From Priapulus caudatus (lineage: Eukaryota), in assembly GCF_000485595.1 (NCBI RefSeq), contig NW_014577081.1, positions 865,674 through 898,388 on the forward strand: 32,715 nt of DNA. The letters are read 5' to 3'. Below the pieces are notes generated by a model. The model was not told the origin of the DNA and searched no databases. It saw only the letters and a list, made by a program, of their open reading frames with translations. Positions 803 through 30,761 of the stretch are shown in pieces. Both the position numbers and the translations under genes were made by a program. Each line of letters opens with the position of its first letter. Within the stretch, counting starts at the first letter, position 1.

Positions 803-970
803 GTTCTGATTCTGCTCTACGTTGCCAACTGGATGGTGCACTACATGTGGCGCAAGAAGCTCGACCCGGACCACGCGGCCATCCCGTATCTGACCGCCAT
901 CGGTGACCTGGTCGGCACAGCACTCCTGGCAGCCACCTTTTTCCTGCTAGCCACCTTCGGTAAAGAGTAA
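803..970 (+). CDS. SLC41A1: Terminal coding exon of an SLC41 (eukaryotic MgtE-type) Mg2+ transporter
   Basis: Acceptor tgtttcag at 795-802, then VLILLYVANWMVHYMWRKKLDPDHAAIPYLTAIGDLVGTALLAATFFLLATFGKE*. Closely resembles the SLC41A1 C-terminus and contains the P(D/A)x4Px6D motif. Paralog assignment is uncertain; upstream exons lie outside the window. Confidence 0.93.
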   Translation, partial: VLILLYVANWMVHYMWRKKLDPDHAAIPYLTAIGDLVGTALLAATFFLLATFGKE

Positions 971-9537: not shown

Positions 9538-9637
9538 CTTGTACTGCTTCTTCCTGCTCCCTCCGCTCTCCCTCCATCCTCTCGGCTAGTGACATTTGCA
9601 TCTCTCAGAACCGTGTAGTCATAGCGACGATAGCTGC
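9538..9637 (-). CDS. Probable N-terminal Slob exon
   Basis: xSYRRYDYTVLRDANVTSREDGGRAEGAGRSSTR; strong tattttag acceptor and gtaact donor, open frame. Confidence 0.6.
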
Positions 9638-9802
9638 CTAAAATACAAGATTGGGAAACAAGCCATGCAGGCAAATATAATTGTAAACAGATCAATCTGT
9701 TATTACATCACTTCAAGTATTAATGGTGAAATCAGTACCACACCACCTACAGGTGTGACTTGCACATCTGTGATGCTGAGAGGGTCAAAGGTAACTGCTT
9801 AC

Positions 9803-9987
9803 ATGCATCTCCACATCAGCCAGGCAAAGATAGGCCAATGTAAGCAGTGAGAGCAAGACCAGTAGGACGATCCCCTGCAAGACACATTATGTCTGTAGTC
9901 AGTGACAGTGCAAATTAAGGCGGGCAATTGATGAGCTACATTTGGTATTGTGATGATTTCACCTGGCAACGCGACTGGTAGCGCCAT
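9803..9987 (-). CDS. Possible first coding exon of Slob-like gene
   Basis: ORF MALPVALPGE...FAWLMWRC ends at a strong GTAAGC donor; the true start could instead be the internal Met of MWRC. Confidence 0.4.
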
Positions 9988-10486
9988 GGATTGTTTATGA
10001 GGAACTCTTTTATGGACTCTTGATATTTAGCAAAAAAAACAACAACGAAGTTCCGGTATTTGGCCATTTTTGCAGCTGCTTCATTTCCCCACCCACTCAG
10101 CGTCTAGTTTTGAAAAATTAGGGCTTCTATTTTTGAAACTTTTTGTCCATTTTTCATAAAAAATATTGATTATTTGGGTTTCAAACCAAAATTCCTAATT
10201 TTTTCAAACCAATTTTTTTTCAAATTACGTGTTCAAAGTTACCCCAGTTGACGGTACCGTAAAATACTTATGTTGTAACAAAACCGGGCAATACTAAAAG
10301 CCTCGGATACTAGTACTATACTTAGTAGGTATTTGTGGAATTTGTGCTAGTATTATATTACTGTTTGCAGAGGAGCTGCGCACGTCTGCACTATAATGCC
10401 AATCAATTCTAAAATGAAAATGATACACCGGCACGTGTCACGTGCACACTCAACCACACTCTCCGTGACACTGGCACTATGGTCAT

Positions 10487-10670
10487 AGGGTCTATGTCCC
10501 CGCGGTACTGCCGGAACGTACCCTGGTAACTATTTGATTATGGTTAGGGTTAGGGTTAGGGAGTAGGCGTAGCAACTCTCTAGACTCGTTAGTGGAGTAG
10601 GCAAGTACGGTCCGGCAATATTAGATAGCTACCAGGGTACGTTCCGCAATAGCCTGGGGACATAGACCCT
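10487..10670. mobile_element. MITE with ~45-bp TIRs and internal (TTAGGG)n
   Basis: AGGGTCTATGTCCC...GGAACGTACCCTGGTA paired with TACCAGGGTACGTTCC...GGGACATAGACCCT; copy at about 17213-17404. Confidence 0.7.
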
Positions 10671-10753
10671 CTCACGGCACTATGTACACAACATTAGTTC
10701 AAGAAAACGGTCTTGCTAGGGTTAGCAAGACCCGTATAGACAATCGGTCACAC

Positions 10754-11145
10754 CACAGGCACTTGAAAACGTCTCAATAAAATAAAAAAAAGTAAATAAA
10801 CACGAAATGTATTTACTACCAAAGTCGTACTCTAATTTCACCTATAATCACCTCTTTCACCTGTAAATGCCGGTCAAATGCTCATCTGCAACACACAAGT
10901 ACACCGCACGCCAGCTGCTGCACACTGACACATAACTATATATTTATGTGTCAGTGTGCAGCAGCTAGCGTGCGGCGGCCAGCATGTGACAGGTGTGTTG
11001 CAGATGAGCATTTGGACGGCATTTACAGGAAATTGTCGGCCAATAATAGTGAAAAGAGAGTAGAGAAACATTAAGGCTTTGCGTAGTAAATAGATTTCGT
11101 ATTTATTTACCATTATATTTTATTGAAACGCTCCAAGTGCCTGTG
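10754..11145. mobile_element. MITE with long TIRs and central hairpin
   Basis: CACAGGCACTTG...CAAGTGCCTGTG ends; long imperfect arms; central palindrome gctgctgcacactgacacataa...ttatgtgtcagtgtgcagcagc; same family as the 11207-13347 outer layer. Confidence 0.75.
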
Positions 11146-11206
11146 CCTCGCACAGCCTGGTCGGGCTACACAACACGGCCATAAGTACATTAGTAGGGCC
11201 TAAGAC

Positions 11207-13347
11207 CACAGACACTTTGCAACGTCTCAATGAAAAAAAAAGGTAAATAAAAATGTTATTTACTACTAGTCTTAATTGTTTCTCTACTCTATTTCGCCTA
11301 GGTATTATTGCGCATAATTACCCGTAAATGCCGCGTCAAATGCCTCACTGCAACACACAAGCTACACCGCAGGCACCGCCCTTGCGCACAAGCTCTCTAT
11401 TCATGTTGTTTGTGCACAGGCGGGCGTGCGGCGTACTTGTGCAGATGGAGTCGTTGTCGTATCAGGTACTACAGATATGTACCCGAGGTAGCTCTAGTAC
11501 TATAGCCGCTTACATTAACTGCCGCTGGCTATAGAACGACCCATGGGGCATGCGATGGACCAACTTATCCCCGGATATATCCGGCTATTGAAACGTCTGT
11601 GGTAGGCAATTAATGCCTCTTATCCGAAGTGAATATGTCTTAAGTTATAGCCGCTACTAAAATTAAACCTCTAACTATCGTTGCAATGCGTATACTTGCG
11701 GTATTTCTGTGAACAACATTCGATTTGCGAACTTCAAACGGCCATTTCTGGCGGCGCTGCAGCAGCGCCAGTCAGCGGGAACTATGTATTTCCGCATGTG
11801 GAGGCGGTGGGCGGGTTGGGTGGGTTGTGGACAACAACATTGTTGTTGTCAGTAACAAATTAAGCGATCAAAAGAGATTGTAATATTAGTTTTGTCATGA
11901 AAGATGAACAAATTACTATTATTAATGTAATGAAGATAATAGTGTCATAAAAGGGAAAGTGGATTAAGAGAGAAGTCATTAGGAACAGTGGAAAACTACC
12001 GGCTAGCCTAAGGAATAGAATGTCCGGCAGGTCTTAGAAAACAATCGATCTTAGGGACGATTAGGATTAGTCGTGCTAAGATGGTCAGCCACGTAGAACG
12101 GTCACTCTGACCGTTCTAAAACATTCCATTAAAGCGCTCTGAAAACTCGCCGTCCAGGGACGTGGCGAAGGCCAATGCTGACGTCAGATAGCGGGCTAAT
12201 GTTCCCAAAAAAGAGAATAAATACCGTCGTACTGGACTCTAGAAGACAGTTCGCTGAACGCAGCGTCTTCGTAAGTATTAATAGGTCTATCGTATGAGTG
12301 CTCATCGTATCTGTGTCTCTCTCTCTTTAAACTATTTTGAGTCATTGTATTTTGTTTATTTACGGTGCTACCCTCTGTTTTGTCATATACATCCACTCTG
12401 TTGGTTGTTCTGTGAGAAAACACGTTAGTACAAACATACTCTGTACGTGAGAGAGACGGAGCACTATAGCTAAGGATACGTAGACCATTGATACATTTAT
12501 AACTAACCATCTGTAGACACGCAGGCAAGGCGTGCACTGTATTGCGTTTATCTAACACGACGAAACCCCTTGTATGTTGTTGTACTTAAATGGTGATAAG
12601 TATTAAATAGATATATATATATATGTTGTACGTACACATCTGGTTTTGTCTATCATTATATGCTAACCTCAGGTAATTACCCGCCCACAAGCAGGACCTG
12701 TGGTTTTAGAACATCGCATGGTATATACACTATACGTCACGAGCTACGATCACACACACACACCCACACACACACCTGAGCGTACACGTATACACGAGGC
12801 GAGAAACAAATCACTACATTAATTTGTTACTTGACAACAACAATGTTTTTGTCCACAACCAACACAACCCGCCCACCCCTCCACATGCGGAAATACATAG
12901 CTCCCGCTAACTGGCCGGAGTAAGTTGGTCCCGAGCATTCGTAATGGTTGATGCTATAGCCCAGCGGCAGTTAATGTAAGCGGCTATAGTACTAGAGCTA
13001 TATACCCGAGGTAGTTTTAGGTTGTTTAGCTATTATGTTTATATTTTATACGAGGTATGTTTGGGTTAGGGTTATAGGTTAGGGTTAGGGTTAGGGTACA
13101 CTTCTGTAGTACAAGTCTGGTACACTTTGTGTATACATATATGTACCTCGGGTACATATCTGTAGTACGGTACCTGATACGACAACGACTCCTTCAGCTG
13201 TACTTGTGTGTTGCAGATGAGCATTTGACCGGCATTTATGGGTAATTATCGGCAATAATAAGCGAAATAGAGTAGAGAAACATTAAGACTTTGGTAGTAA
13301 ATACATTTCGTGTTTATTTACCTTTTTTTACGTTCCAAGTGCCTGTG
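11207..13347. mobile_element. Nest of concentric MITE-like elements
   Basis: Four inverted-repeat pairs nested inside each other (11207/13347, 11447/13192, 11489/13000, 11768/12914) surrounding the solo LTR. Confidence 0.75.
11926..12818. mobile_element. Solo LTR (Ty3/Gypsy-like), 893 bp
   Basis: TG...CA ends with imperfect inverted termini TGTAATGA/TCACTACA; 4-bp TTAA target-site duplication (11922-11925, 12819-12822); absent from the duplicate copy, which has a single TTAA at about 18481. Confidence 0.8.
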
Positions 13348-15173
13348 CCTGTGGCTGTGCCTAAGAGTAAGACAGGTAACTTTGCGAAGATATAACTGAT
13401 AGTAAGTGATAAGCCATACCCGCCGAAACATACTCTACCGATTAAAATAATTCCACTATGCACGCTACTGTTTGCCATATTCACTCACCAACGCTTCCAT
13501 TGCATGCTAAAAGTTTCTCATAAACAAATTAACGCTGGTTTTTGTATTTTACTTTCTAAATAGTTCACATACTAAACACGCCGCTGGTTACGAAGTTCGA
13601 CCACAGCACCCCCTGGCCGCCGACGACGATAGCAGCGCCGTTAGCGCCGTTAGCGCTACAAATATACAAATTGTATAGATCTATAGAGACACAATCTATA
13701 TTATTTCTATCGCTACAAATAGTAATGTTTTGATCATATATATATATATCAAGAGCGTATTAAGAAAGTCTTCTTATATATTATATAGATATATAGATAT
13801 ATATAATATATATATATATTAGGCAGGGCGTAGCCAGTATGTAGCCACTGTAGGCCCGGGCCTACACTTTTTTTGGCCAAGTTATCTTTTTTTTTAAACA
13901 CCCATAATTCAAATCCATAAGCTTGCTGGACGAGTTTAAGAGTCTAGGCAGGAAAAACTATTGAATGAACGTAGCAAGAATATGGCTAAATTAGGTGACC
14001 ATTCTTCTGTCATCTAGGCTGTCATTTCTATCGCGTGCCGTTTCATTCAACACTCTACCGCCGAAAAAGACTAGGATCCGATCTTGTCAGTTTTTAACAT
14101 TTTAACTCGTTCGTACACTATTTTAACTCCGGTGCGTTTTTGGGTTTAAAAGTGATATTGAATTAGGTGTCTAAAGTTAGCAAGAGGTCAGGGAACCAGA
14201 ATGAACACTCGGGAAGGGCCGTTTCCGGCCATCTGGGGGGTTTGTAAAACCAAAAATACAAACCCAACTGTACGCGGGCTATAGTTACTAGAGCAAGATA
14301 CAAGCTACATAAATTTGTTATCAGAATTGCAAACATTGACATCTAAACTTATTATTTATAATGTTACTAATTTAAGAATAGTAATCTTAATATTGATATT
14401 ATTGTGTTGATAATAATTGCCAACAGAAAAATTGTTCAAATCAGACATTCTGCTTTATTTAAATAAATGCATGCTGACTGCTACAATGAGATGTGTACAC
14501 TTCCTCGCACCTGCGATTATTGCTGCCACCACATCAATGGTTATCAAAGTTAAATTAACCGTATTCACCGGCGTAACCTACCCGTCATGGAATCATGCAG
14601 CAAACGGATTCATCCAACAACACCCCGCAAAACCCACAATTCATGTCCTAAAGCGACAAGATATTGTAATAAATATGATCAACGTGCAGTTGTCTAGTGG
14701 CGCATATTTAAATGAGGTACTCATCATTGATTTTGTATTGCATGAATAGATCATTACCTAAATGAACAAGGACGGTCTAATGACGTACGTGTCAATAAAC
14801 GCACTGAAGCCATAGGCGGCGCTAGTTGCTGGCAGGTGGCGCATCAGGTAAGCCAATCCTTGACACCAAATAATTAAGGTCAGATCTAGTGTGAGATATT
14901 TAACTGGGGAAAATTGTACTAACATTTTTACTTCTATGTCTTTTTGGTGTTTTTATACCAGTTTTTGTACTGTTAAGATTGGCCACTTTGGATACCTCCC
15001 TCATCTGCATCAAGTGACTGCCCCGTCCATCTCCCGGCCTCCCCTTCCTCCACATGACGGCCTGTTCCCCCCCCCCGCATGATCGCAGCGGCACCCCCTT
15101 ACGGACTCTCTCTTCCTTCCTCTATATGTGAGAACCCATCTGTTTATTACAGTTGCATCATCGGAACAGTGAA

Positions 15174-15331
15174 TCACAATTCGTCAGGCACATGACGGGA
15201 GAATTGGCGTCTTCTCTCCTCTACCTCCACCTCTACGTCTACAGCAGTGCGGGACGGCGGCCGCCGCTCCTTCTCCATCACTCTCTGTAAGATCTTGTGA
15301 AGCACCGTTATCTGTCTTCCTTCCTGTGTCA
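15174..15331 (-). CDS. PHB-depolymerase-like last exon with C-terminal extension ending PDEL
   Basis: (M)TQEGRQITVLHKILQRVMEKERRPPSRTAVDVEVEVEERRRQFSRHVPDEL*; gttgcag acceptor; AATAAA on - strand at 15143-15148. Confidence 0.82.
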
Positions 15332-15584
15332 CTGCAACGTGTACGAGGGACGCGCCGTCAGACATGAAGGGCACGCCAGGTAAATGCGCCGTTGGCATCG
15401 TTACAACCTGACACGCTGCTCCAGCTAGTGGTTAGAGGGGGTCGGTTTGTTATTATTCGTCATTTTTCACTCATTATTATTGGGTTAGCAATGTCGATTT
15501 TTTATATTAGTATTTATAACTTAATAACATTAAATTAGTGAAATTATAGGCAAATTAATAATAATAGCTTTTATGATCACATAC

Positions 15585-15739
15585 TGTACGCCAAGCCGGT
15601 GTATCCCCACCAATCCCAGCAGCCTGTCGGGTTAAATTTATCTATCGGTAGAGCCTGGGGATACAGGATGATGATGTTATTCAACTCTCCGACTTCGTTG
15701 TAACCGGCGTTGTTGTTGAAGTCGTCGCCAACCAGGTCT
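15585..15739 (-). CDS. PHB-depolymerase-like penultimate exon
   Basis: DLVGDDFNNNAGYNEVGELNNIIILYPQALPIDKFNPTGCWDWWGYTGLAY; diagnostic IILYPQ and NPxGCWDWWGY motifs. Confidence 0.93.
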
Positions 15740-15852
15740 CTGGTAATGTCGCGCAGCAGGAGAAGAAACGAAACCATGAATATCTGCTGCGCTCGGTTCA
15801 GTTTTAATACAGCGCTCATTTGTAATGGTTGCCTCCCCAGGCTCCTCTCGTA

Positions 15853-17696
15853 AGTCATACTTTGTACACAACATGCATACAGCAACATGTAAACCCGGCC
15901 TCCGTGATTTTGTCACCATTAGGAATAATTTGTGACCTCGTCGATTTCGCCAAAGCATAATCTTGACTTTTGTTTGGGAAACACCTTTACGATAATTAGA
16001 CACAATTTCTGGCTTCTGTGACATTATTAGAGTCAGTGCATCAAAATTATGAAAATTTTAACAAAATCATGCTATGAAATAGTAGCTCTGGCCAAGCTTA
16101 AAATAGCTCCCGTAAACAAAATTACGAGAGCTCTTTTTTTCCTACAAAATCAAAAAAGAGCTCTCGTAATAAAAAAAGTATTTTTTAGGCTGTACCTAAC
16201 GTAATGTGAATCCGCACTGTAGGCACTAAAGTCGGATGACACGACGCTGTCACAAATGCTTGATATGTGCACAACAACAGCTATTCTGTAGAAGCTGCAA
16301 GTTACCTTGTACTGCTTCTTCCTGCTCCCTCCGCTCTCCCTCCATCCTCTCGGCTAGTGACATGTCATCTCTCAGAACCGTGTAGTCATAGCGACGATAG
16401 TGCCTAAAACACAAGATGGAGAACAAGCCATGCAGGCAAATATAATTGTAAACAGATCAATCTCTTATTACATCAACTTCAAGTATTATGGTGAAATCAG
16501 TACCACACCACCTACAGGTGTGACTTTGCAACATCTGTGATGCTGAGAGGTCAAAGGTAACTGCTTACATGCATCTCCACATCAGCCAGGCAAAGATAGC
16601 CAATGTAAGCAGTGAGAGCAAGACCAGTAGGACGATCGCCTGCAAGACACATTACGTCTGTAGTCAGTAACAGTGCAAATTAAGGCGGGCATTGATGAGC
16701 TACATTTGGTATTGTGATGATTTCACCTGGCAACGCGACTGGTAGCGCATGGATGTGTTTATGAGGAACTCTATTATGGACTCTTGATATTTAGCAAAAA
16801 AACAACAACAACAAAGTTCCGGTATTTGGCCATTTTAGATCGTCTGCAGCTGCTTTATTAGTTTGGAAAAATTAGGGCTTATATTTTGAAACTTTTTGTC
16901 CATTTTCATAAAAATATTGATTATTTTGGTTCAACCTAATTTTTTCAAATTACGTGTTCAAAGTTACCCCAGTTGACGGTACCGTAAAATACTTATGTTG
17001 TAACAAAACCGGGCAATACTAAAAGCCTCGGATACTAGTACTATAGTATACTTAGTAGGTATTTGTGGAATTTGTGGTAGTATTAAATTAGTGTTTGCAG
17101 AGGAGCTGCACGTGCACTATAATGCAATCAATTCTAAAATGAGAAGGATACACCGGCACGTGTCACGTGCACACCCAACCACACTCTCCGTGACGCTGGC
17201 ACTATGGCTCATAGGGTCTATGTCCCCCCGGGTACTGCCGGAACGTACCCTGGTAACTATTTGATATGGTTAGGGTTAGGGTTAGGGTTAGGGAGTAGGC
17301 GTAGGTGACTCTCTAGACTCGTTAGTGGAGTAGGCAAGGTACGGTCCGGCATATTAGATAGTACCAGGGTACGTTCCGGCAATAGCCTGGGGGACATAGA
17401 CCCTCTCAGCGGCACTATGTACACAACATTAGTTCCAAGAAACGGTCTTGCTAGGGTTAGAAGACCGTATAGACAATCGGTCACACCACAGGCACTTGAA
17501 ACGTCTCAATAAAATAAAAAAAAGGTAAATAAACACGAAATGTATTTACTACCAAAGTCGTACTCTATTTCACCTATAATCACCTCTTTCACCTGTAAAT
17601 GCCGGTCAAATGCTCATCTGCAACACACAAGTACACCGCACGCCAGCTGCTGCACACTGACACATAACTATATATTTATGTGTCAGTGTGCAGCAG
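15853..17696 (+). repeat. Direct duplicate of 9105-10974 (includes frameshifted copies of Slob 5' exons)
   Basis: Colinear match from agtcatactttgtacacaac to gtgtgcagcag with many 1-bp indels; ends at N gap 17697-17706. Confidence 0.92.
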
Positions 17697-17706
17697 NNNN
17701 NNNNNN

Positions 17707-19434
17707 GAAGATAGAGGGTTGAACGATTAGAAGTAAAGCTTGGGACAAAAACAGCCGTTAGGAATTTGTCTATGAGAAACTTTGCAGCAGAGGGAAGCTG
17801 TGTGTGGAGGTGAATATGGCAAACAGTAGCGTGCATAGTGGAATTATTTAATCGGTAGAGGATGTTCGGCGGTATGTGCTTATCACTTACTATTATCAGT
17901 TATATCTTCGCAAAGTTACCTGTCTTACTCTTAGGCACAGCCACAGGCACAGGCACTTGGAACGTCTTTATAAAAAAAGGTAAATAAACACGAAAGTATT
18001 TACTACCGAAGTCTGTAATGTTTCTCTACTCTATTTTCGCTTATTATTGCCGATAATTACCCGTAAATGCCGGTCAAATGCTCATTTCTGCAACACACAA
18101 GTACAGCTGAAGGAGTCGTTGTCGTATCAGGTACCGTACTACAGATATGTACCCGAGGTACATATATATGTATACACAAAGTGTACAGACTTGTACTACA
18201 GAAGTGTACCCTAACCCTAACCCTAACCCTATAACCCTAACCCTAAACATACCTCGTATAAAAATATAAACATAATACTAAACAACCTAAAACTACCTCG
18301 GGTATATAGCTCTAGTACTATAGCCGCTTACATTAACTGGCGCTGGCTATGCATCAAGCCATTACGAATGCTCGGACCAACTTACTCCGCCAGTTAGCGG
18401 GAGCTATGTATTCCGCATGTGGAGGGTGGGCGGGTTGTGTTTGGTTGTGGGACAAAAACAGTTGTGTGTCAGTAACAACATTAATAATAGTAATTTGTTC
18501 ATCTTTCATGACAAAAATAATATTACAATCTCTTTTTGATCGCTTAATTTGTTACTTGACAACAACAATCGTGTTGTCCACACCACCCCAACCCGCCACC
18601 CCTCCACATGCGGAAATACATAGTTCCCGCTGACTGCGGCCTGCTGCAGCGGCCGCCAGAAATGGCCGTTTGAAGTTCGCAAATCGAATGTTTGTTCACA
18701 AGAAATACCGCAAGTAACCATTGCAACGATAGTTAGAGGTTTAATTTTAGTAGCGGCTTATAACTTAAGACATATTCACTTCGGATAAGAGGCATTAATT
18801 GCCTACACAGACGTTTCATAGCCGGATATAATCGGGGATAAGTTGGTCCATCGCATGCCCACATGGGTCGTTCTATAGCCAGCGGCAGTTAATGTAAGCG
18901 GGCTATAGTACTAGAGCTACCTCGGGTACATATCTGTAGTACCTGATACGACAACGACTCCATCTGCACAAGTACGCCGCACGCCGCGCCTGTGCACAAA
19001 CAACATGAATAAGAGAGCTTGTGCACAGGGCGGCGTGCGGTGTACTTGTGTGTTGCAGATGAGCATTTGACGCGCATTACGGGTAATTATCGCAATAATA
19101 GCCTAGGCGAAATAGATGTAGAGAAACATTAAGACTAGTAGTAAATACATTTTATTTACCTTTTTTTTTCATTGAGACGTTGCAAGTGTCTGTGGTCTTA
19201 GGCCTACTAATGTACTATGGCCGTGTTGTTAGCCGACCGGAGGCTGTGCGAGCGCCACAGCACTTGGAGCGTTTCAATAAAATATAATGGTAAATAAATA
19301 CGAATCTATTTACTACCAAAGCCTTAATGTTTCTCTACTCTCTTTCACCTATTATTGCCGACAATTTCCTGTAAATGCCGTCCAATGCTCATCTGCAACA
19401 CACTGTCACATGCTGGCCGCCGCAACGCGTAGCT
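17707..19434 (-). repeat. Inverted duplicate of ~10971-13580 lacking the solo LTR
   Basis: Reverse-complement matches throughout (e.g. 17825-17890 vs 13402-13470; 19385-19432 vs 10973-11020). Confidence 0.9.
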
Positions 19435-20316
19435 TTGCTTGTTAATGTGTGTACGTGCAGGGTGAGCTTGTGCTAGCATGCCATAACCTGCAGTGTTGGC
19501 CCTTCAATTCAATCGGCTGACAGTACAGAATGCCATAGAAAGTATACGATTTAAGGAGCATAAACCTTCTTCAAGCAAATTTAGCTTTTGAAATTTGACT
19601 GTGACATTGTAGCCTCATACATCCAAGCATGTATAGATTCTACTAGCAAACCCAGCAGTCAAATTCTTTCTAACACAGTAACAGTTAACAAATCCATGTT
19701 TAAATCCCTCCTCTTGAGGGTCAAAAGGTTATCAGACACTTACTCTTCGCACATCAGCGGAAAGCACATTTCATGGTCCTTTCAATAAAGCCATAAAAAT
19801 GCTAGGTCACTGCTGAAACAAAAAAGTTTTCCAATCGCTCCGTCACACCATGTCTTCAGAAAATGTCTAAAATCTGCCCTGTGCCCCATTGACCTTTGAC
19901 CTGTGACCTCCAATTTCGGCACAGTGATGGCTTTTCCTACCATGATGCTATACACCGACTACCACTAGGGTCAAGAGGTGTAAAAGAAGGGGGAACATTC
20001 CCTCCTTAACTTAAGGTATAGGGAGGAAATGCAGAATTGCGGCACAAATCTAAACGGCTTTGACCTTTGACCCCAAGCTTCGACATCCCAACTCGTTTTG
20101 ACGATCCCCCCCAACGTCCCGAATATCGTGACCGTACGTCGAGCGGTTAAGATTTGTGCCCAACTGTTGACGCACGGACGGACGGACGGACGGACGGACG
20201 GCCGGACGCACGCACGGACGGACGGACGATCGTGCGATTCTACAAGCTGCATCTGACTTCGTCAGATGAGCTAAAAACAGTGACGTCATTACTAGTTGTG
20301 TTCGATAATGACGTAC

Positions 20317-20422
20317 CTGATTGATCACGGCAGGCGCTCGGTACGTAGCCAGCACCGAATCCGCTCATAGATATCGCAACGTTGGAATCGTCAAAGTATT
20401 CTCTCTGGTCGAACTCTATGAA
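20317..20422 (-). CDS. PHB-depolymerase-like exon 8
   Basis: FIEFDQREYFDDSNVAISMSGFGAGYVPSACRDQS; FDQ..Y and YVPxxC motifs. Confidence 0.88.
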
Positions 20423-20714
20423 CTGTAACAGCACATCCCCCCACAGGCAAACACATGACGTCATCAGCTATGCAACTGTAGAGTTCTATTGCTCTCTAAG
20501 ATTTGTAGAACATATTCAATAGCATTCCTATTACAAAGGTTCTTATATAATTATTATATTATCATAATTATGTATATATCTTCTTATATATATATATATG
20601 TATATATACTTGCGTTACCGTCTTTGCTACTGACCATAGATTTTGCCGTAAAACAGAATTTATAACGTGTATTGTTTACGCGTTCACTGGGTAACAGTCT
20701 GAGCAATGACATAC

Positions 20715-20747
20715 CTCTCCCTTTAATTCCACGTCACTAGACGGTTT
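20715..20747 (-). CDS. PHB-depolymerase-like exon 7 (33 nt)
   Basis: KPSSDVELKGE; tttttccccgcag acceptor, gtatgt donor; phase 0/0. Confidence 0.75.
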
Positions 20748-21097
20748 CTGCGGGGAAAAATCAATCGAAACAATTCTCATATTGAGCGGCAGTTATCGAT
20801 TACACACGTGGATTTTCATTTAGCTCAATTAATGGCGTGCGATGTGACGTCATGCTATCATTTAGTATCAAACACGATATACTACTGTAAATAAATTTTA
20901 GGGGTCATGTCCACGAATGATAGAGAATTTTTGTGACGCGAAAAAGCAAATTTTCATCTATCTGTCATTCGTGAAAATATGGGTCCTTTATTTATGATGA
21001 AGCAACAAACAGGATCACGGCTAGAGAGAGGAGCTGGGAAGGAACTCTCCCCGCGCGGATGTCGCAACCGTAACTGGGTTTGTATCGACGGCCGCAC

Positions 21098-21208
21098 CTC
21101 TAAGTGTCCGTAGATGTGGCTGAGAAGAGCGTAGGCGGTGTTGTAGCCACAGTTGTTGAGCAAAGGACGCCGGCTCTCCCTGCACTCACAGCCGTGACTC
21201 TCTGTGGG
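21098..21208 (-). CDS. PHB-depolymerase-like exon 6
   Basis: PTESHGCECRESRRPLLNNCGYNTAYALLSHIYGHLE; fits the PT...C...P...NCxY...L..IYG.L pattern. Confidence 0.9.
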
Positions 21209-21381
21209 CTGAAAATCCCAAATAGTCAAGAAAACATATTCATCTAAGTTCATTCTCAGTTAGGTGTAGGCGCTGGGTAGTAATTCGGGTCCAAGTTATA
21301 ATTAATCCCGTGTTAGATGGAGCCGATAGCAAGAGTGTATGTGGGCGCGCCCTTCTCAGCTCTATACGTGCGTGTTCTTAC

Positions 21382-21473
21382 AATTCCGTGGCCTGCTGCT
21401 ATCTCGTACTCTGCCTTCACGTTCTCGGCTGGTAGAAAAAATTCGTAGAATTCCTGCGTTTTTTTCACCACTT
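21382..21473 (-). CDS. PHB-depolymerase-like exon 5 (catalytic His)
   Basis: (E)VVKKTQEFYEFFLPAENVKAEYEIAAGHGI; cttgcag acceptor, gtaaga donor. Confidence 0.88.
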
Positions 21474-21700
21474 CTGCAAGAGCAGCAATTAATTATTATT
21501 GATGTGGCTGTCTTTATTGTTGTTAATTATTACGGTTTTTGCTGCTGCTGTTGTTTTGTTACAAGCCAAGTATTAATTTAATTTAAGCTTTAGTGTTTTA
21601 AATTTTTGTTATTTTACGTGTTTCTGGATAATTAACTGCTCAAAATAAGCAAATATGAATCAATAAATAAATAAATAAATGAGTGAACTTTTTATCGAAC

Positions 21701-21823
21701 CTGGGTTAACTCGCTCATCGTGTTTTCCAGCCAGCAGGAAAACCTTAGCCTTTTCCAGGTGTTCAGGGTTATCAATGTGTTCCATGTCACCGAGGGCAAA
21801 GGTCATGTCAACAAGCTGCATGG
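21701..21823 (-). CDS. PHB-depolymerase-like exon 4 (catalytic Asp)
   Basis: (A)MQLVDMTFALGDMEHIDNPEHLEKAKVFLLAGKHDERVNP; contains the IDxxxxL and GxxDxxV motifs. Confidence 0.88.
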
Positions 21824-23338
21824 CTGCAAGTGTCACATTAATTACCACTAAATACACAATAACTAAAATAATCTACAGTACGAATTAATTAACTAACATA
21901 AACCATTTAAAAAAATACACAAATTCAATTATTTACTATATTGTATGAAACTCGACAAAACCGTGAATGTCAACACACACACCCACACACCCGCCACACC
22001 GGCCACACACACCACACCACACACACACATGCCATTTGTATTGTGATAAAGATTACCGAAAAGGGTGTCGCACATGCAGATCATAAAAATCAAGAAAACA
22101 ATAAAGCAGAAAACCAATCTTGGTGTTAGAGGGCTGATACCAAAATAATTTTGGTCGGGATTTATTATTGTTAATGGTCCCAAGGTCATCAATAATTATG
22201 CGTGTATTACATATCATCATTTGCAATGGAATAATTACATTATTAAATAATGCTATTACTAACAGTCTCCCACTTTTTGCGTGAATATAAGCTCGTGTTC
22301 ACAGCTTAATCCTGAAATAAGTGTCTAATGTGAGATGATATTCCTAAGCCTTTCATAAACAGATATTCTCTTGAATGAATTTCTGCAATTAGAATTATTT
22401 AATATACAGAAAAAAAACGTGTTAAAAAAGAAACGGTACCTAATTTTATAAGACATCCGCATTATTCTTAAAAACGGTTGTGCTGATCATTATATAATGC
22501 TCTCAATGCAACTTGAATGAAATGCAGTGGCAAAAAAAGAAAGTCAATCAGGGAAAGCGTCAAATTGTTGACGCACAGTATCACAAACAATTAAACGGCT
22601 TCTGCACTTCCAAACGACACACAATCGCCACACCACGCCACACACGCACACACACCACACATGAGCACGACACAACAGACACACACACACGCACATCAAC
22701 CACACCCACACCACACACACACACACGACACACCAGCACTCAGCACAGTCTACACACTTACATACAAATATGGGAAATATCCGTGGGACATGGTCCCCCT
22801 GTCACACCTGGTTATGCGCCCTGGCGGACCACGCACCAAGCACAGTTGCCTACTACCCGCGCACGCTGGCAACATTCCGAATGACCGAACGCATGTAGCC
22901 AGCACGCACCTGCACGCACGCTAACGCACATACAAACTCCAACACCCGCCGCGTGCGCAAAATGCGTTTAAGAAGCATAGGGGACGCGGCGAATATTACG
23001 CAAATCTATAAATCAGATTATTGGCAGCTGATTTATTAGTGACGTAATGCAAGAAAGATGTTTGCTTGCTTGATAAGAATAGTTAGCAGTTGGGCTACGT
23101 GGGCGAGGCGGGATGGCGGATGGAGCTAGGTACCATGAGTTTCATAAGGTGGTCAACGGAAATGAACAGGTGCCGTAATGCTATGATGAGCGATGCTGAA
23201 TTTTATAGTGCATACGAACTGACTCATAAGAAAATTTGGGGGCGAGTAGAAAAATCACGTAGCTGACTCGGTGAATATAGGAGGCCTTATATATAGTTGA
23301 GAAAATCGCGTACAGCCATTTAAGGGAGAAAGTTATTC

Positions 23339-23580
23339 AGAGAGAGAGGAGAGAGACGAAGAGAGAGAAAGAGAGAGAGAGAGGAGATCAGACGAGAGAG
23401 AGAGAGAGGAGGAGAAGAGAGAAGAGAGAGAGAGAAGAGAGGAGAGAGAGGGAAAGGGCAGAGATAGAGAGAACATAAGTAAGAAAACGATGTAGAAAGA
23501 GAAAGGCGAGGAGGGGAAGGAGAGCGAGAGAGACAGTATAATATATATTACTATAATAATATATATTATTATATATATAC

Positions 23581-23614
<34 letters not shown>

Positions 23615-23630
23615 GAGAGAGAGAGAGGAG
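23339..23630. repeat. Noisy (GA)n tract
   Basis: Seen directly; a (CT)n tract also occurs at 24535-24722. Confidence 0.85.
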
Positions 23631-24211
23631 GGGGTCGTCATGCGCGCCGTTCAGATTTCGTAAGACGTTGATCGCTCTAATTAATTATAAAATTAAATTG
23701 GTATCTGGTAAAGCAAATAAACGTTCTGGGTCTACGACGAACTTTGTTATACAGTAAGTAAGTTGATATGCAGTAATCTAAGAGGCTACCTGCCCTATTA
23801 ACCGATACGAATTATCGTGTAAAATCACGGGTCCACCGTGTGACCCAGCCAGCTGACCGTGACGCACAGGGACGGAGTGGTCACCAAACCCAACGATAAG
23901 ATCGCACGCGTTCACTTTCTCATGCACTCATCAACGTACACGTATAGCTGCTATCTCACCGCGCATAAGTTATCACGATATCCCAGCAGATGCTAGAGCT
24001 ATCGGGATGCAGCTAATGTAGCATAGAACAGAAATTCAAAGTCCACTGACGCGTCGTGTAACCAGGCGACACACGCGGCAGACGTACACTGGCTGGGTCA
24101 TATAGCGCTGTCACAAACCTATGTCCGTGCGTGTGACACACTGTCAAACTGTAGTGAGACGAGAGCACCCTATACATTATACATATACATATACATTATT
24201 ACATATACAAC

Positions 24212-24305
24212 ATGCGCGCGGCGACGTGTACAGTCATTCTTGCTGTCACCATCATCTGCTGTGTAATTACTACTGCACGCGGACAACACCAGGCAGCGCC
24301 ACTGA
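24212..24305 (+). CDS. PHB-depolymerase-like exon 1 (signal peptide), lying in an inverted assembly block
   Basis: caacATG start; MRAATCTVILAVTIICCVITTARGQHQAAPL, then A|GTAAGT. Hydrophobic signal peptide. Phase 1 joins exon 2 as ...AAPL-N-GYGAVDVSVSG. A noisy + strand copy of exon 2 follows at about 24815-24930. Confidence 0.75.
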
Positions 24306-24570
24306 GTAAGTGTCATAATTGTTATATTTGATTAATAAATAGCTCATAATATACATATACGTATATATGTGTGTATGTGTGCGCGCGTGTGTGCGTGCGT
24401 GCGCGCGCGTGTGTAGGTATATAGATAAATGACAGTTACAGTGAATCTGGCAGAAACTGACGAGTCAACGACGACGATTGTTATGATGGCGATTAATGTT
24501 GATCGATAATAATCAAGTAGGCGCGATATTAATACTCTCTCTCTCTCTCTCTCTTCTCTCCTCTCTTCGC

Positions 24571-24601
<31 letters not shown>

Positions 24602-25876
24602 TCTCTCATTCTCATCATCCTCTCCTCTCTCGTCTCTCTCTTCTTCTCGCTCTCTATACTGTCCTCTCTCTCATCTCACGTCACTCTCTCCGTCTTTCTC
24701 TCTCGCGCGCTCATCTCTTCTCTTAACCCTCCGTCGTCGTCGATCGTGCGTGCGTAGCGTGAGTGCGGCGTGCGTGCGTGCGTGCGTGCGTGCGTGGTTG
24801 CGTGCTGTCGGTAGATGCGTACGAGCGATAGATCAGTGTCATGTCCGGCACTCGCGCCGGCGCACTAGGCGCACGCAAGATGCTCTCTCATCACTCAGCT
24901 CGTTCCCCACCCCAGGACAGCCTTGTCATCGCCGCAGGTCACACACCCCGTACGAATTCACTCAATCCAGATCAGAGATCAAGATACATAATGATAATCG
25001 CCTGATACGATACTAACTGACTATACCCGCCACGCCTCACGAAACTTCGATCGCATGCCGCTGCCGCTGCTGTCCAATGCTAATCCGCGGCGTCGCTCCG
25101 CTTGCTACTACAGCTGCGCAAACCAGAGGAATTACTCACACTTCTTTCGTTGCAATTTTCTGCCCATTTTCGACCCCTACCCATTAAATACACCTGGACA
25201 GAATGTAGTATAATATCATTCATATAATAGTAAGTATGTGTCTGCAGGAGCCTAAAACATTGATGAGTTAGCTTTTACTCTATAGTAGACTGCGCGCTAA
25301 TATTTGGCATGGTATAAATAATTTTGTATTGTGGACCAGCATGAGGAATTCCAGAGACAACGGTGAACCCTATCTCTATCGCTTTCATTCACCAGGTCCT
25401 ACTTCTGCGGCCGGCGGCAGCCTCGAGATCTCGCGCGATGCTTGGTGCAAACGGGCGAAATCGACGGTCACTATAGGAAGTTTACAACTCCGATCTTTGC
25501 CGAACATTCACGGTTTTGTCGAGTTTCATACAATATAGTAAATAATTGAATTTGTGTATTTTTTAAAATGGTTTATGTTAGTTAATTCGTACTGTAGATT
25601 ATTTTAGTTGTAGCGCATAGACTTTCGTAACCTAGTAGTAATTCTTCAGAGCCGGTTTTGTGCTTTANNNNNNNNNNTAAAGCACAAAACCGGCTCTGAA
25701 GAATTACTACTAGGTTACGAAAGTCTATGCGCTACAACTAAAATAATCTACAGTACGAATTAACTAACATAAACCATTTTAAAAAATACACAAATTCAAT
25801 TATTTACTATATTGTATGAAACTCGACAAAACCGTGAATGTTCGGCAAAGATCGGAGTGTAAACGTCCATAGTTAC

Positions 25877-25951
25877 CGTCGATTTTCGACGCGTTTGCCA
25901 CGCAAGCATCTCGCGAGATCTCGAGGCTGCCGCCGGCGCAGAAGTAGGGAC
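25877..25951 (-). CDS. PHB-depolymerase-like exon 3
   Basis: (G)PYFCAGGSLEISRDACVANASKID(A); tttcccag acceptor, gtaact donor; noisy inverted copy at about 25396-25466 (+). Confidence 0.85.
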
Positions 25952-26361
25952 CTGGGAAATGAAGCGCGATAGATTAGGGTTTCACTCGTTGTCTCTGGAA
26001 TTCTCTCCAATTGCTGGGTCACAATACAAAATTATATACCATGCAAATATACGCGCAGTCTACTATAGAGTAAGCTAACTCACAATGTAGCTCCGCGACA
26101 CATACTTACTATGTAATAATGTGATATGATATTATATCCACATTCATGTCACAGGTGTATTAAGTGGTATGTGCGAAAATGGCAAAAATGCGAACCGATA
26201 AAATGTGATAATTCTCTGTTTGGCGCAGCTGTTATACAACGAGCACCGCGCATACATTACAGCACGGCACGCATGCGACATTTCTACGTGCGTATACCAT
26301 AGTACTACACGATGATCATGTATATCTATCGTGCTATCTATATGAATCTACGTGTGTGTAC

Positions 26362-26478
26362 CTGCGGCGATGACAGCTGCTCCTGTGACGTAGCTAGAGT
26401 GTGAGATGAGCATCTGCTGCGCCATGTGACCGCCGGCGGCGATGCCGGACACGGACACATCTACGGCTCCGTAGCCAT
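26362..26478 (-). CDS. PHB-depolymerase-like exon 2 (lipase box, Ser->Ala)
   Basis: GYGAVDVSVSGIAAGGHMAQQMLISHSSYVTGAAVIAA(G); aligns by eye to the family motif VSVSGLSSGGxMA. Confidence 0.88.
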
Positions 26479-26487
26479 CTACCGACA

Positions 26488-26538
<51 letters not shown>

Positions 26539-26598
26539 CGACGACGACGACGGAGGGAGAGAGAGAGAGAGAGCGCGCGAGAGAGAAAGAGAGAGAGT

Positions 26599-26636
<38 letters not shown>

Positions 26637-26639
26637 NTC

Positions 26640-27101
26640 AGTTGCTAGGAGGCCCCTGATTGGCCGCCTGCTACGAGGCCCCTGATTGGTCGGCTGCTAG
26701 GAGGGCCCTGATTGGTCGGCTGCTAGGAGGCTCCTGATTGGTCGGTAGCTACGAGGCTCCTGATTGGTTGGTAGCGAGGAGGCCCCTGATTGGTCGGCTG
26801 CTACGAGACTCCTGATTGGTCGGTTGCTAAGAGGCCCCTGATTGGTTGGTTGATAGGAGGCTCCTGATTGGCCGGCTGCTAGGCAGCCCCTGATTGGCCA
26901 GCTGCTACGAGGCCCCTGATTGGTCGGCTGCCTGGAGGCCCCTGATTAGCCGGCTGCTACGAGGCTCCTGGTTGGTCGGCTGCTAGGAGGCCCCTGATTG
27001 GTCGGCTGCTACAAGGCTCGTGATTGGTCGGCTGCTACGAGGCCCCTGATTGGTCGGTTGGTAGGAGGCCCCTGATTGGTCGGCTGCTAAGAGGCCCCTG
27101 A
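26640..27101 (+). repeat. 26-bp minisatellite, ~18 units
   Basis: Unit GGCCCCTGATTGGTCGGCTGCTACGA; period 26 (e.g. 26651 to 26677). Confidence 0.95.
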
Positions 27102-27709
27102 CAGGCTTTTCTGGCTTCTCATAATTCTGGCTGGGTAGCGCCGTAGTGCGCCTATTTTTATAGGCGTCTTTGATAACATCAGGAGTGAATAATAGAAATA
27201 ATATATAGAGATAAACAACTTTATTATTCACTCCTGATAACATTTACAGCTACAATGCGAGCCAGAAGAGAAATTCCAATCATTCTTTTAACAGGCTAAC
27301 AACCAGCGCTTGCTTATTATATTACATTACGCTACGTACGTTATATTACATTACGCTACGTACGCTACGCTACGTATTACATTACACCAAGATTACACCA
27401 AGAGCGTATTAAGAAGAAATCTTAAGAAGAACCCTCTTAATACGCTCTTGATTACACGTGTAAAGCGAGATAATGCCACAGGAATAGTGCACAGGTCAGC
27501 ACCATGCAGGCACCTGTTTGGTGTGTAAATTCTGCTAATTGGGTTTATCCAAGCTGTTTATCCAAGTAGTTTATCGCCTAACTTACTATCAAGAGCAAAT
27601 ACCTACCTTGGTATTTATTAGCTCTTGTTACTATATATATATCGAGCAAGGACCACGCATAACGGTTTTCCGCCAAATCTGCGGCTACGAGATAGTTTAT
27701 AGAACGTAC

Positions 27710-28289: not shown

Positions 28290-28291
<2 letters not shown>

Positions 28292-29240
28292 CTGCTGATT
28301 GCCCGGCTGTTACGAGGCTCCTGATTGGTCGGCTGCTACAGGCCCCTGATTGGTCGGTTGGTAGGAGGCCCCTGATTGGACGGTTGCTAGGAGGCCCTGA
28401 TTGGTCGGCTGCTGTCAGGGGCCTCTTAGCAGCCGACCAATCAGGGGCCTCCTACAACCGACCAATCAGGGGCCTCCGTAGCAGCCGACCAATCACGAGC
28501 CTTGTAGCAGCCGACCAATCAGGGGCTCCTAGCAGCCGACCAACCAGGAGCCTCGTAGCAGCCGGCTAATCAGGGGCCTCCAGCAGCCGCCAATCAGGGC
28601 CTCGTAGCAGCTGGCCATCAGGGGCTGCCTAGCAGCCGGCCAGTCAGGAGCCTCCTATCAACCAACCATCAGGGGCCTCTTAGCAACCGACCAATCAGGA
28701 GTCTCGTAGCAGCCGACCATCAGGGGCCTCCTCCGCTACCACATCAGGAGCCTCGTAGCTACCGACCAATCAGGAGCCTCCTAGCAGGCCGATCAATCAG
28801 GGCCCTCCTAGCAACCGACCAATCAGGGGCTTCATAGCAGCCGCCCTCAGGGCCCTCCTAGCAGCGACAAATCAGGGGCCTCGTCAACAACGGCCAATCA
28901 GCGGCCTTGTAGCAGCCAACCAATCAGTGGCCTGCTGCAACCGACCAATCAGAGGCCTCCTAGCAACTGGCTAATCAGGAGCCTCGTTGCAACCGACCAA
29001 TCAGGGGCCTCCTAGCAGCTAACCAAGCAGGGCCCTCCTAGCAACCAACCAATCAGGGGCTTCGTAGCAGCCGGCCAATCAAGCCTCCTAGCCAGCCGAC
29101 CAATCAGGGCCTCGTAAAACGGCCAATCAGCGGCCTCATAGCAGCCGACCAATCAGTGCCTGCTAGCAACCCCAATCAGGAACCTCATAGCAACCAACCA
29201 ATCAGGAGCCTCGTAGCAGCTGACTAATCAAGGGGCTTCT
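28290..29240. repeat. 26-bp minisatellite: ~5 forward units then ~32 inverted units
   Basis: Same unit; orientation flips at about 28413; 28414-28860 mirrors 26640-27101. Confidence 0.93.
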
Positions 29241-30761
29241 GCTATTACATGGCTGCAATCGACGACATTAACGGCTAAGCACAACCAATCACTCACACAA
29301 CTTGCAATCTGGCAATGCTGTGTTAACTCATGCTCGACCGGCTTATATACCGCATATCCTGCTAACAGACAGTAAGATGGCAAGGAAGCTAACACCAGCC
29401 AATTAACCAGTCTCGTCGCCGTGGTCCAGCCTGCTTGCAATTATTATCAAGGCATTCATAATAGTCAACAGCGCCATGTCTACTACCAATGCTGCCGCAC
29501 GCACACGCTTTACGCAACCTAGACACACAATATATACACTGACGCGCACAGGCACAAGCACTCCTAAATGTCAAATGTCAAAGTCAATGTCAATGTCAAT
29601 GTTATATGTCAAAGTCAAGGCTCCTTCACTCTTACCCCTACCCCTACCCCTACCGCTAACCCTAACCCTGATCCTAACCCTGACCTCAGTTAGCGGTGAC
29701 TGCTACTTCCGCTGACCACCTGACCAACGCCACTTGATATAGAATAATCTTAATAAAATAATAATAATATTGATAAAGTATAATCTTACACGTTAATGTA
29801 ATCAATATACCTCAACAGCGCCTGACAGGCATATATGTTCGATAGCTTACACACACACACAACACACACACACCACCACACACACACTCACACACCCCAC
29901 ACACCACACACACACAAGATACAGACACACATACACACTGCGCGCGCATCGACCCCTCTCCCCCTCCCCCCTAGAGAGGGAGAGAGAGAGCGCGAGCGAG
30001 AGAGAGCGAGAGACGCAGGCACGCGCATACATATGCCAATATAATAGTCAAATATATTATGTCACAGAGTAGAACCGGGTTTTTTCACGAATACGGCTGT
30101 ACACCTGGTAGCACTCCATCGGACTATTCCTATTATACATACTTACACACATCGATATTCTCGGTGATAGTATAGATTTCACACCACGTGGTATTTCACA
30201 GGCTTATAATAATTAAACAACTTACAAAATAACCGAGCCAGTGTACGAACTAACTTCATGAAAAATTACTTACCTTAGTTGAATGTACACATTGACTGAA
30301 AGTCTTCCCTGATTTGAAGTCCATTCTGGCTGAATTTTCACCCTGGCTGTAAGTCAAGCGTCACTGCATTTCTGGCGTTGTTAATTTGTACCTCGATCAA
30401 CTCTAGTTTAACGCCTAGCGTTGATGGTTGCCTCTTATTAAGCGATGAAATTGTAGCAGACGCTCAAATGCTATATATAATAGTACCGGCCCTCAAGACA
30501 ACAGACATGCAAAGAAGCTAACACCAAGCAATTTACGCGTCTCGTCATCACCTCGACTGTTGCAATAACAACAACAGCCTAGACGCGCCAAGATGTCTAT
30601 ATCGTTACGCGCAACCCGCTCCCATACATTACATCAGGAGTAGATAATAGGGAATCTACTATATTCTACTATATAGTATATCTACTATATACCTACTATA
30701 TATCTACTATATACTTCCCTATTATCTACTCCTGATTACATACACGTCAGTCCACACACAC

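What the first reader, a model, noticed from the sequence alone, without database searches (positions are those of the whole stretch)
15174..26478. Intron-containing animal homologue of extracellular PHB (bioplastic) depolymerase
Seen: ten phase-consistent GT-AG exons give a secretory protein carrying the motif order of fungal-type PHB depolymerases such as the Penicillium funiculosum enzyme (lipase box near the N-terminus, AGPYxCA, GxxDxxV, AxH, NCxY, YVPxxC, IILYPQ, NPxGCWDWWG). Known: this family is characterised mainly in bacteria and fungi, and animal members are little studied. Inference: spliceosomal introns and linkage to Slob and SLC41 make it a genuine animal gene, not bacterial contamination. 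It may relate to handling polyhydroxyalkanoate from dietary or symbiotic bacteria.
Basis: partly seen in the sequence, partly recalled or inferred. Interest (0 to 1): 0.8.

Follow-up and report, generated by a model that had tools for sequence, protein, structure and literature searches.

The report
Worm PHB depolymerase lacking catalytic serine
This is a real, spliced gene of a marine priapulid worm from a family of bioplastic (PHB)-degrading enzymes already described in animals, but this copy has alanine where the family's catalytic serine belongs, so it likely cannot cut PHB and would instead act as a non-cutting binding protein.

Summary
The gene is real and animal: residues 50-250 equal RefSeq XP_014670990.1 of Priapulus caudatus, public contigs splice its junctions (25, 27), and sequence and fold point to the fungal-type PHB depolymerase 2D80 (52, 84). 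Animal members, including another Priapulus paralogue, were described and some assayed in 2026 (PMC13642032); this scan has noted intact ones in two other genomes. Corrections: 11 coding exons, not ten; the window is misassembled (exon 1 inverted, exon 9 absent). A DNA contig from another study and a spliced contig show the same codon (27); 188 of 191 aligned relatives have Ser, none Ala (68). Asp131, His165 and 43 of 45 family-conserved columns are kept; both losses lie at the active site. The protein ends in PDEL; its closest relative keeps Ser and ends in DDEL. The serine-less exon is also skipped in frame. Best reading: an expressed, still-constrained pseudoenzyme, untested. New variant of a known kind.

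The parts
24212..24305 (+). Exon 1 (94 nt coding; start codon and predicted signal peptide). It sits on + only because it lies in an inverted, misassembled insert
   Evidence: Loose ends of spliced contigs in X6 and X7 match this exon's 3' end up to its GT donor; hydropathy peak 2.8 over residues 7-20; no signal-peptide program was run
26362..26478 (-). Exon 2 (117 nt, phase 1-1): nucleophile elbow G-I-A-A-G; Ala45 at 26440-26438 and Ala46 replace Ser-Ser; cassette exon, skipped in frame in some transcripts
25877..25951 (-). Exon 3 (75 nt): GPYFCA motif
21701..21823 (-). Exon 4 (123 nt): catalytic-triad Asp131 in GxxDxxV
21382..21473 (-). Exon 5 (92 nt): catalytic-triad His165 in AGH
21098..21208 (-). 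Exon 6 (111 nt): NCGY motif
20715..20747 (-). Exon 7 (33 nt)
20317..20422 (-). Exon 8 (106 nt): YVPSAC motif
15740..20316 (.). Interval in which exon 9 (43 nt; oxyanion-hole motif, HAC instead of HGC) should lie but is missing; 15853-19434 is a rearranged second copy of 9105-13545
   Evidence: Same 40 extra letters in contigs of X6 and X7; no match in the window with up to 3 mismatches; self-BLAST
15585..15739 (-). Exon 10 (155 nt): GYNEVGELNNIIILYPQ and NPTGCWDWWG
15174..15331 (-). Exon 11 coding part (158 nt): last helix, charged tail of about 30 residues, C-terminal PDEL, stop
14700..15173 (-). 3' UTR (extends beyond 14700)
   Evidence: One 1652-nt contig of X6 runs through it into exons 11 to 3
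21971..25731 (.). Assembly insert: noisy inverted copy of the exon 1-3 region folded back at the N run 25668-25677; not part of the real intron 3
   Evidence: Self-BLAST 24644-26635 palindrome, 81% identity, 160 gap openings; a DNA contig of X5 joins 25732 directly to sequence at about 21830-21860

Best explanation
This is an 11-exon Priapulus caudatus paralogue of the animal PHB depolymerases whose nucleophile serine is alanine, so it is predicted to be a catalytically dead but still folded and still constrained pseudoenzyme that would bind short polyhydroxybutyrate chains or similar esters without cutting them, likely inside the ER-Golgi lumen. Shown: gene structure, transcription and splicing, family and fold, Ala45/Ala46, kept Asp131 and His165, HAC for HGC, PDEL end, in-frame skipping of exon 2. 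From established alpha/beta-hydrolase chemistry: with no serine hydroxyl at the elbow, no acyl-enzyme can form. Inferred: the crevice still binds substrate, as the engineered S39A fungal enzyme does in 2D81; PDEL gives partial ER retrieval; the gene arose by duplication within an xDEL-tailed lineage whose other known member keeps the serine; its job is to hold or buffer substrate, or to modulate an active paralogue.
For: Ala aligns with the residue that differs between 2D80 (GLSSG) and 2D81, the S39A mutant bound to an R3HB trimer (GLASG); Ser39 is the catalytic residue (PMC5445757, passage). 188 of 191 aligned segments with a residue there have Ser, 2 Gly, 1 Asn, 0 Ala; 58 further segments do not reach the column. 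The codon shows no difference in a DNA contig of X5, from another study than X1-X4, nor in a spliced contig of X6. Constraint: of 45 columns conserved in at least 90% of 142 relatives, the model keeps 39 of the 40 readable in the window, the only miss being S45A. Of the 5 in exon 9, read by hand, 4 are kept and G of HGC is A (194 of 195 motif matches have G). The frame is open across 11 exons at 41% identity to the nearest relative. X6 against the window: 2 listed changes in 820 coding nt versus 7-8 in 474 UTR nt, p 0.006-0.014. The two core-coding variants seen are silent. Sister to P0084 (SH-aLRT 98), which keeps GISSG and ends in DDEL; 2 of 175 full-length relatives end in an xDEL-like motif.
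Against: No assay, localisation or proteomic evidence. Only one species shows the alanine form: no orthologue with Ala was found, so conservation of the loss is untested. Exon 2 is skipped about as often as it is included in X6 (contig depth 5.6 versus 7.59), and only the skipped form was seen in X7; such a product would lack part of the core fold, which fits decay. Raw RNA depth on exons 4-8 is about 0-2 per strand in X11 and X12, and X13 had no reads on exons 2-3. The exon versus intron test on X5 was not significant (1 of 192 versus 15 of 563, p 0.086), and one X6 difference could not be placed in UTR or exon 11. PDEL gave mixed ER-Golgi localisation of a reporter (PMC2140024, passage). Contigs drop rare variants, so a Ser allele could exist unseen. 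Nothing here shows what the protein binds.
Confidence: 0.55

Rival explanations
1. A duplicate that lost its activity and is decaying: still transcribed, no longer needed.
For: Frequent in-frame skipping of the active-site exon, whose acceptor is preceded by a (CGTG)n microsatellite and is the only TAG among nine acceptors; low read depth; longer branch than its sister, 1.03 versus 0.62; a serine-bearing paralogue is listed for the species (XP_014675511; its sequence was not seen).
Against: No stop or frameshift in 11 exons; 43 of 45 conserved columns kept, with both losses at the active site; fewer coding than UTR differences; DEL end shared with a relative only 41% identical.
Confidence: 0.2
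2. A repurposed enzyme that uses the retained Asp-His pair as a general base for a non-hydrolytic reaction, as some alpha/beta-fold dioxygenases and tomato MKS1 do.
For: Asp131 and His165 are both kept while Ser is lost. Natural Ser-to-Ala at the elbow with a working His-Asp dyad is described for cofactor-free dioxygenases, and MKS1 decarboxylates beta-keto acids without the triad (PMC10548524, passages). Changes cluster at the elbow and next to the oxyanion cysteine.
Against: Asp and His may be kept for structure. No new conserved residue can be identified from one sequence, and no substrate is suggested by the neighbours.
Confidence: 0.13
3. An active, secreted PHB depolymerase that digests dietary or symbiont polyester.
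For: Family, fold, predicted signal peptide, Asp, His and oxyanion Cys are all present; enzymes from four animal species are active (PMC13642032, sections 6 and 9).
Against: Ala at the nucleophile in the window, an independent DNA contig and a spliced contig; the next residue is also Ala; the second isoform lacks the elbow altogether; PDEL tail.
Confidence: 0.07
4. Bacterial or fungal contamination, or a recent horizontal transfer.
For: Most Atlas clusters nearest by structure are bacterial.
Against: Ten spliceosomal introns with contig or read support; identity with a Priapulus RefSeq model; placement in a 39-row clade, SH-aLRT 95, that holds all 16 named animal rows (quick tree, long branch).
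Confidence: 0.01

Closest known systems
Animal PHA depolymerases (PHADs), Zeidler et al. 2026, Nat Ecol Evol (PMC13642032)
   Same: Domain type 2 layout, signal peptide, multi-exon gene (the Olavius gene has ten exons), Asp, His and oxyanion Cys; Priapulida is among the phyla covered.
   Different: The paper describes conservation of the triad; this copy has Ala for the serine, HAC for HGC, a charged tail ending in PDEL, 11 exons and a skipped active-site exon. The Priapulus entry in its Supplementary Table 2 is another gene (LOC106815555, 328 aa); LOC106811783 was not found in the held part of that file.
Penicillium funiculosum PHB depolymerase, PDB 2D80 and its S39A mutant 2D81
   Same: Best sequence hit (E 1.4e-11) and best fold hit (E 2.1e-11, probability 1.00); Asp121 and His155 align with Asp131 and His165; natural Ala45 corresponds to the engineered S39A.
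   Different: About 24-26% identity; Ser40 is also Ala; C-terminal extension.
RefSeq XP_014670990.1 / LOC106811783, Priapulus caudatus, 'uncharacterized', 218 aa
   Same: Identical to model residues 50-250: it is this gene.
   Different: The public model lacks exons 1, 9, 10, 11 and the elbow, and ends in a false exon from a repeat at 18990-18943; the real product is 368 aa.
P0084 (unnamed Logan protein, 359 aa)
   Same: Nearest relative, 41% identical, sister in the tree (SH-aLRT 98), acidic tail ending in DEL.
   Different: Keeps GISSG and HGC, so predicted active; species unknown.

Membership tests
Extracellular scl-PHA depolymerase, domain type 2 (fungal/animal PHAD) | Homology and fold of the P. 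funiculosum enzyme | tested here: met
   phmmer E 1.4e-11 and 9.3e-7 for two separate parts; Foldseek top two hits 2D80 and 2D81, next hit E 7.9e-3 (model of residues 50-250 plus the false tail, pLDDT 87.3); Atlas TM 0.91 to type 2 clusters. Pfam found no family for P0083.
Extracellular scl-PHA depolymerase, domain type 2 (fungal/animal PHAD) | Lipase box before the oxyanion-hole motif | tested here: met
   Elbow at residues 43-47, oxyanion motif near residue 260 in exon 9
Extracellular scl-PHA depolymerase, domain type 2 (fungal/animal PHAD) | Nucleophile serine in G-x-S-x-G | tested here: not met
   G-I-A-A-G; codon unchanged in contigs of X5 and X6
Extracellular scl-PHA depolymerase, domain type 2 (fungal/animal PHAD) | Triad Asp and His | tested here: met
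   Asp131 and His165 align with Asp121 and His155 of 2D80
Extracellular scl-PHA depolymerase, domain type 2 (fungal/animal PHAD) | Oxyanion hole (Ser40 and Cys250 amides; HGC motif) | tested here: inconclusive
   Cys kept; motif is HAC and the Ser40 position is Ala (as in 35 of 191 relatives); main-chain geometry not modelled
Extracellular scl-PHA depolymerase, domain type 2 (fungal/animal PHAD) | Secretion | tested here: inconclusive
   Hydrophobic N-terminus but C-terminal PDEL
Extracellular scl-PHA depolymerase, domain type 2 (fungal/animal PHAD) | Hydrolyses denatured PHB to 3-hydroxybutyrate | not testable with these tools
   Needs an assay; predicted negative
Pseudoenzyme (catalytically dead, retained paralogue) | Loss of an essential catalytic residue with fold kept | tested here: met
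Pseudoenzyme (catalytically dead, retained paralogue) | Maintained by selection across species | tested here: inconclusive
   Within-species signs of constraint; no Ala-bearing orthologue found
KDEL-receptor cargo (ER-retrieved luminal protein) | Signal peptide plus functional C-terminal KDEL-like motif | tested here: inconclusive
   PDEL present and DEL shared with P0084; PDEL gave mixed ER-Golgi localisation in a human reporter

The most novel reading that the evidence does not exclude
Priapulids carry an ER-retrieved (xDEL) branch of the PHB depolymerase family, and this gene is its first natural serine-less member: a dedicated binder or sensor of the animal's own short-chain (complexed) PHB, or an enzyme repurposed to non-hydrolytic chemistry on the retained Asp-His pair, switched on and off by skipping of the active-site exon.
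Probability: 0.2. Interest if true: 0.7.

Novelty: new variant of a known kind. Interest (0 to 1): 0.4.

Why it matters
The claim that animals have PHB depolymerases is already published, so the headline is not new. What is left matters in three ways. Counting PHAD homologues overstates degrading capacity if some, like this one, lack the nucleophile. A natural equivalent of the S39A substrate-trap mutant, next to an active-looking xDEL sister, gives a direct test of whether this family has roles inside animal cells (for example on complexed oligo-PHB) beyond digestion. And the public gene model is wrong because of misassembly; the corrected 11-exon structure can be used at once.

Tried and rejected
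No whole genome is held for this window, so paralogue number and the true place of exon 9 could not be checked. Scans for a family-like exon 9 in the window found none; a weak tblastn match at 27527-27471 was not followed. I first suspected a gutless oligochaete because of the ten-exon Olavius gene; the RefSeq match to Priapulus replaced that. The idea that Ala45 is an assembly error was rejected; the noisy inverted copy of exon 2 is too error-ridden to vote. Search of P0083 among near-length proteins returned only itself (1 of 313 candidates), a limit of the word index. Run search: no RNA holder listed; X6 and X7 are only guessed to be RNA, though their contigs are spliced. X13 gave no reads on exons 2-3, which is no test. 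The careful tree did not finish; both trees are quick trees with SH-aLRT only, and rows outside 300-460 aa or not hand-picked (41 chosen) were left out. A looser regular expression gave 2 HAC hits among relatives, probably outside the motif. Literature searches for an earlier report of this gene or of a serine-less PHAD gave none; supplementary text, Table 7 and the FASTA files of PMC13642032 could not be read and may contain such sequences. The full-length spliced protein was not folded, so the elbow geometry is unmodelled.
Full report
Observation. Building exons by coordinates gives nine minus-strand exons with AG acceptors and GT donors between 26478 and the stop at 15174. They are not phase-consistent on their own: exon 8 ends in phase 1, exon 10 starts in phase 2, and direct joining stops at codon 270. 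Laying public contigs resolved this. Contigs of runs X6 and X7 both carry the same 40 extra letters at that joint, which with the shared edge bases make a 43-nt exon 9; it is not in the window. Loose ends at exon 2 led to the signal-peptide exon, found on the plus strand at 24212-24305. The gene has 11 coding exons and encodes 368 residues (exon 9 held as X).

The window is misassembled. 15853-19434 is a rearranged copy of 9105-13545; 24644-26635 is a noisy palindrome around the N run at 25668; a DNA contig of X5 joins 25732 straight to sequence just upstream of exon 4. This explains the inverted exon 1, the missing exon 9, and the truncated RefSeq model XP_014670990.1 (LOC106811783, Priapulus caudatus, 218 aa), which equals model residues 50-250 and then runs into a repeat at 18990-18943.

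Expression. One 1652-nt contig of X6 runs from the 3' UTR through exons 11 to 3, and X7 contigs show the same joints. X6 and X7 are only guessed to be RNA, but their contigs are spliced. Raw RNA reads are few: 2 and 2 at the exon 10-11 joint in X11 and X12, 3 at 6-7, 3 at 4-5 and 1 at 7-8 in X11, 1 at 5-6 in X12 (about half of each run read); X13 had none on exons 2-3. Exon 1 joins exon 2 in X6 (depth 7.59) and also joins exon 3 directly in X6 (5.6) and X7 (3.98). The skip keeps the frame (329 aa) and removes the nucleophile elbow.

Family. Exon 10 alone finds 2D80/2D81 (E 9.3e-7) and 82 of 82 candidates, many named as animal PHB depolymerase-like. P0083 finds 2D80/2D81 at E 1.4e-11 and 1507 representatives at E up to 0.001. 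Its AlphaFold model (pLDDT 87.3) has 2D80 and 2D81 as the only two hits below E 0.001. Pfam gave no family for P0083. In a quick tree of 54 rows the model lies on the longest end branch (1.55, median 0.3) within a 39-row clade (SH-aLRT 95) holding all 16 named animal rows. Neighbours are an MgtE/SLC41-type exon and a gene with a WH2 motif and a kinase-like segment. Contamination is excluded.

The active site. The lipase box is G-I-A-A-G. 2D80 reads GLSSG and its S39A mutant 2D81 reads GLASG; Ser39, Asp121 and His155 are the triad, and Ser40 and Cys250 amides form the oxyanion hole (PMC5445757, passage). Ala45 is therefore at the nucleophile. Among 68 first-round relatives, 53 of the 54 that reach the column have Ser. 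In the larger set (239 proteins, 249 aligned segments), 188 of 191 have Ser, 2 Gly, 1 Asn and none Ala; 58 do not reach it. The codon (26440-26438) shows no difference in a 974-nt DNA contig of X5, from another study than X1-X4, which has 16 listed substitutions elsewhere, nor in the spliced X6 contig, whose single unlisted difference is most likely at a joint edge. Asp131 and His165 are kept. Exon 9, read by hand, keeps the cysteine but reads HAC where 194 of 195 motif matches read HGC.

Is it under selection? Of 45 columns conserved in at least 90% of 142 relatives of 300-380 aa, the model keeps 39 of the 40 readable in the window; the one miss is S45A. With exon 9 it keeps 43 of 45, close to the family median of 44, and both misses are at the active site. 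X6 differs from the window at 2 listed sites in 820 coding nt (one silent, one in the tail) against 7-8 in 474 UTR nt (p 0.006-0.014; one difference could not be placed). X5 gives 1 of 192 exon against 15 of 563 intron sites (p 0.086, not significant). Against this stand the frequent exon skipping, a poor-looking exon 2 acceptor behind a microsatellite, and low read depth.

Nearest relative and tail. P0084, an unnamed 359-aa Logan protein, stands clear of all other hits (184 bits against 143), is 41% identical over 355 columns and is sister to the model (SH-aLRT 98; branches 0.62 and 1.03, 42 hand-picked rows). It keeps GISSG and HGC and ends in DDEL; the model ends in PDEL. Only 2 of 175 relatives of 280-460 aa end in such a motif. 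PDEL occurs on a human ER protein but gave mixed ER-Golgi localisation of a reporter (PMC2140024, one passage). An xDEL-tailed lineage with one serine-bearing and one serine-less member is the simplest reading; its species range is unknown.

Mechanism. Most alpha/beta hydrolases need the nucleophile for the acyl-enzyme (PMC10548524, passages), so hydrolysis of PHB by this protein is unlikely (about 0.07). I favour a folded, non-cutting binder in the secretory pathway (0.55), by analogy with the trimer-bound S39A structure; the ligand and partner are inferred only. Rivals are a decaying duplicate (0.2) and a repurposed enzyme using the Asp-His pair, for which natural Ser-to-Ala precedents exist in this fold (0.13).

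What is known. PMC13642032 (seen: abstract; sections 4, 7, 9, 10, 15 and part 1 of 2 of section 6; passages; parts 1 and 3 of, and searches in, the spreadsheet, which is held cut and reaches only Table 4) reports 195 PHADs in 66 animal species from nine phyla including Priapulida, with activity shown for Olavius, a sponge, an earthworm and a springtail. Its Table 2 lists another Priapulus gene, LOC106815555, and LOC106811783 had 0 hits in the held part. The main text has no 'inactive' or 'endoplasmic' but gives triad identity as 60-100%, so serine-less members may be in the unread supplements (text, Table 7, FASTA). A search for Priapulus plus depolymerase returned only that paper; (listings only) showed no report of a serine-less PHAD. 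PMC4844607 (listing and start of abstract only) describes P. caudatus as a predatory worm with a gut symbiont. Two earlier notes of this scan describe intact animal PHAD genes in other genomes; none matched this sequence or genome.

Verdict. The gene is real; the family in animals is known; this copy fails the defining nucleophile test and is best filed as a probable pseudoenzyme variant. Interest 0.4.

Noticed in passing
window 770-967 (+): C-terminal exon of an MgtE/SLC41-type divalent cation transporter (PF01769, E 4.8e-14).
   Followed up: partly
   Followed up: partly
window 26638-27104 and 28290-29250: Arrays of a 26-bp minisatellite in both orientations, with 26643-27104 mirrored at 28412-28863 at 95% identity; likely another fold-back artefact.
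   Followed up: no
window 17130-20290: Dispersed repeats with very high RNA read depth on both strands (hundreds of reads), including a segment near 19560-20290 and elements with TTAGGG-like cores.
   Followed up: no
window 30270-30345 and 29350-29420 / 30490-30550 (-): An exon-like AG-GT segment and two similar short stretches upstream of the break at 26637; they do not belong to this gene, whose exon 1 is at 24212-24305.
   Followed up: no
window 27440-27530 (-): Two short words also found in the missing exon 9 lie within about 60 bases of each other, and relatives give a weak tblastn match here (E 0.01); no intact exon.
   Followed up: no
proteins P0073, P0089, P0098: Three relatives with Gly or Asn at the nucleophile (P0073 is a Capitella teleta model); possible further serine-less members or model errors.
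   Followed up: no
protein P0072: A relative near a EukProt row that ends in KDEL, apart from the model and P0084 in the tree: xDEL tails may have arisen more than once in the family.
   Followed up: no
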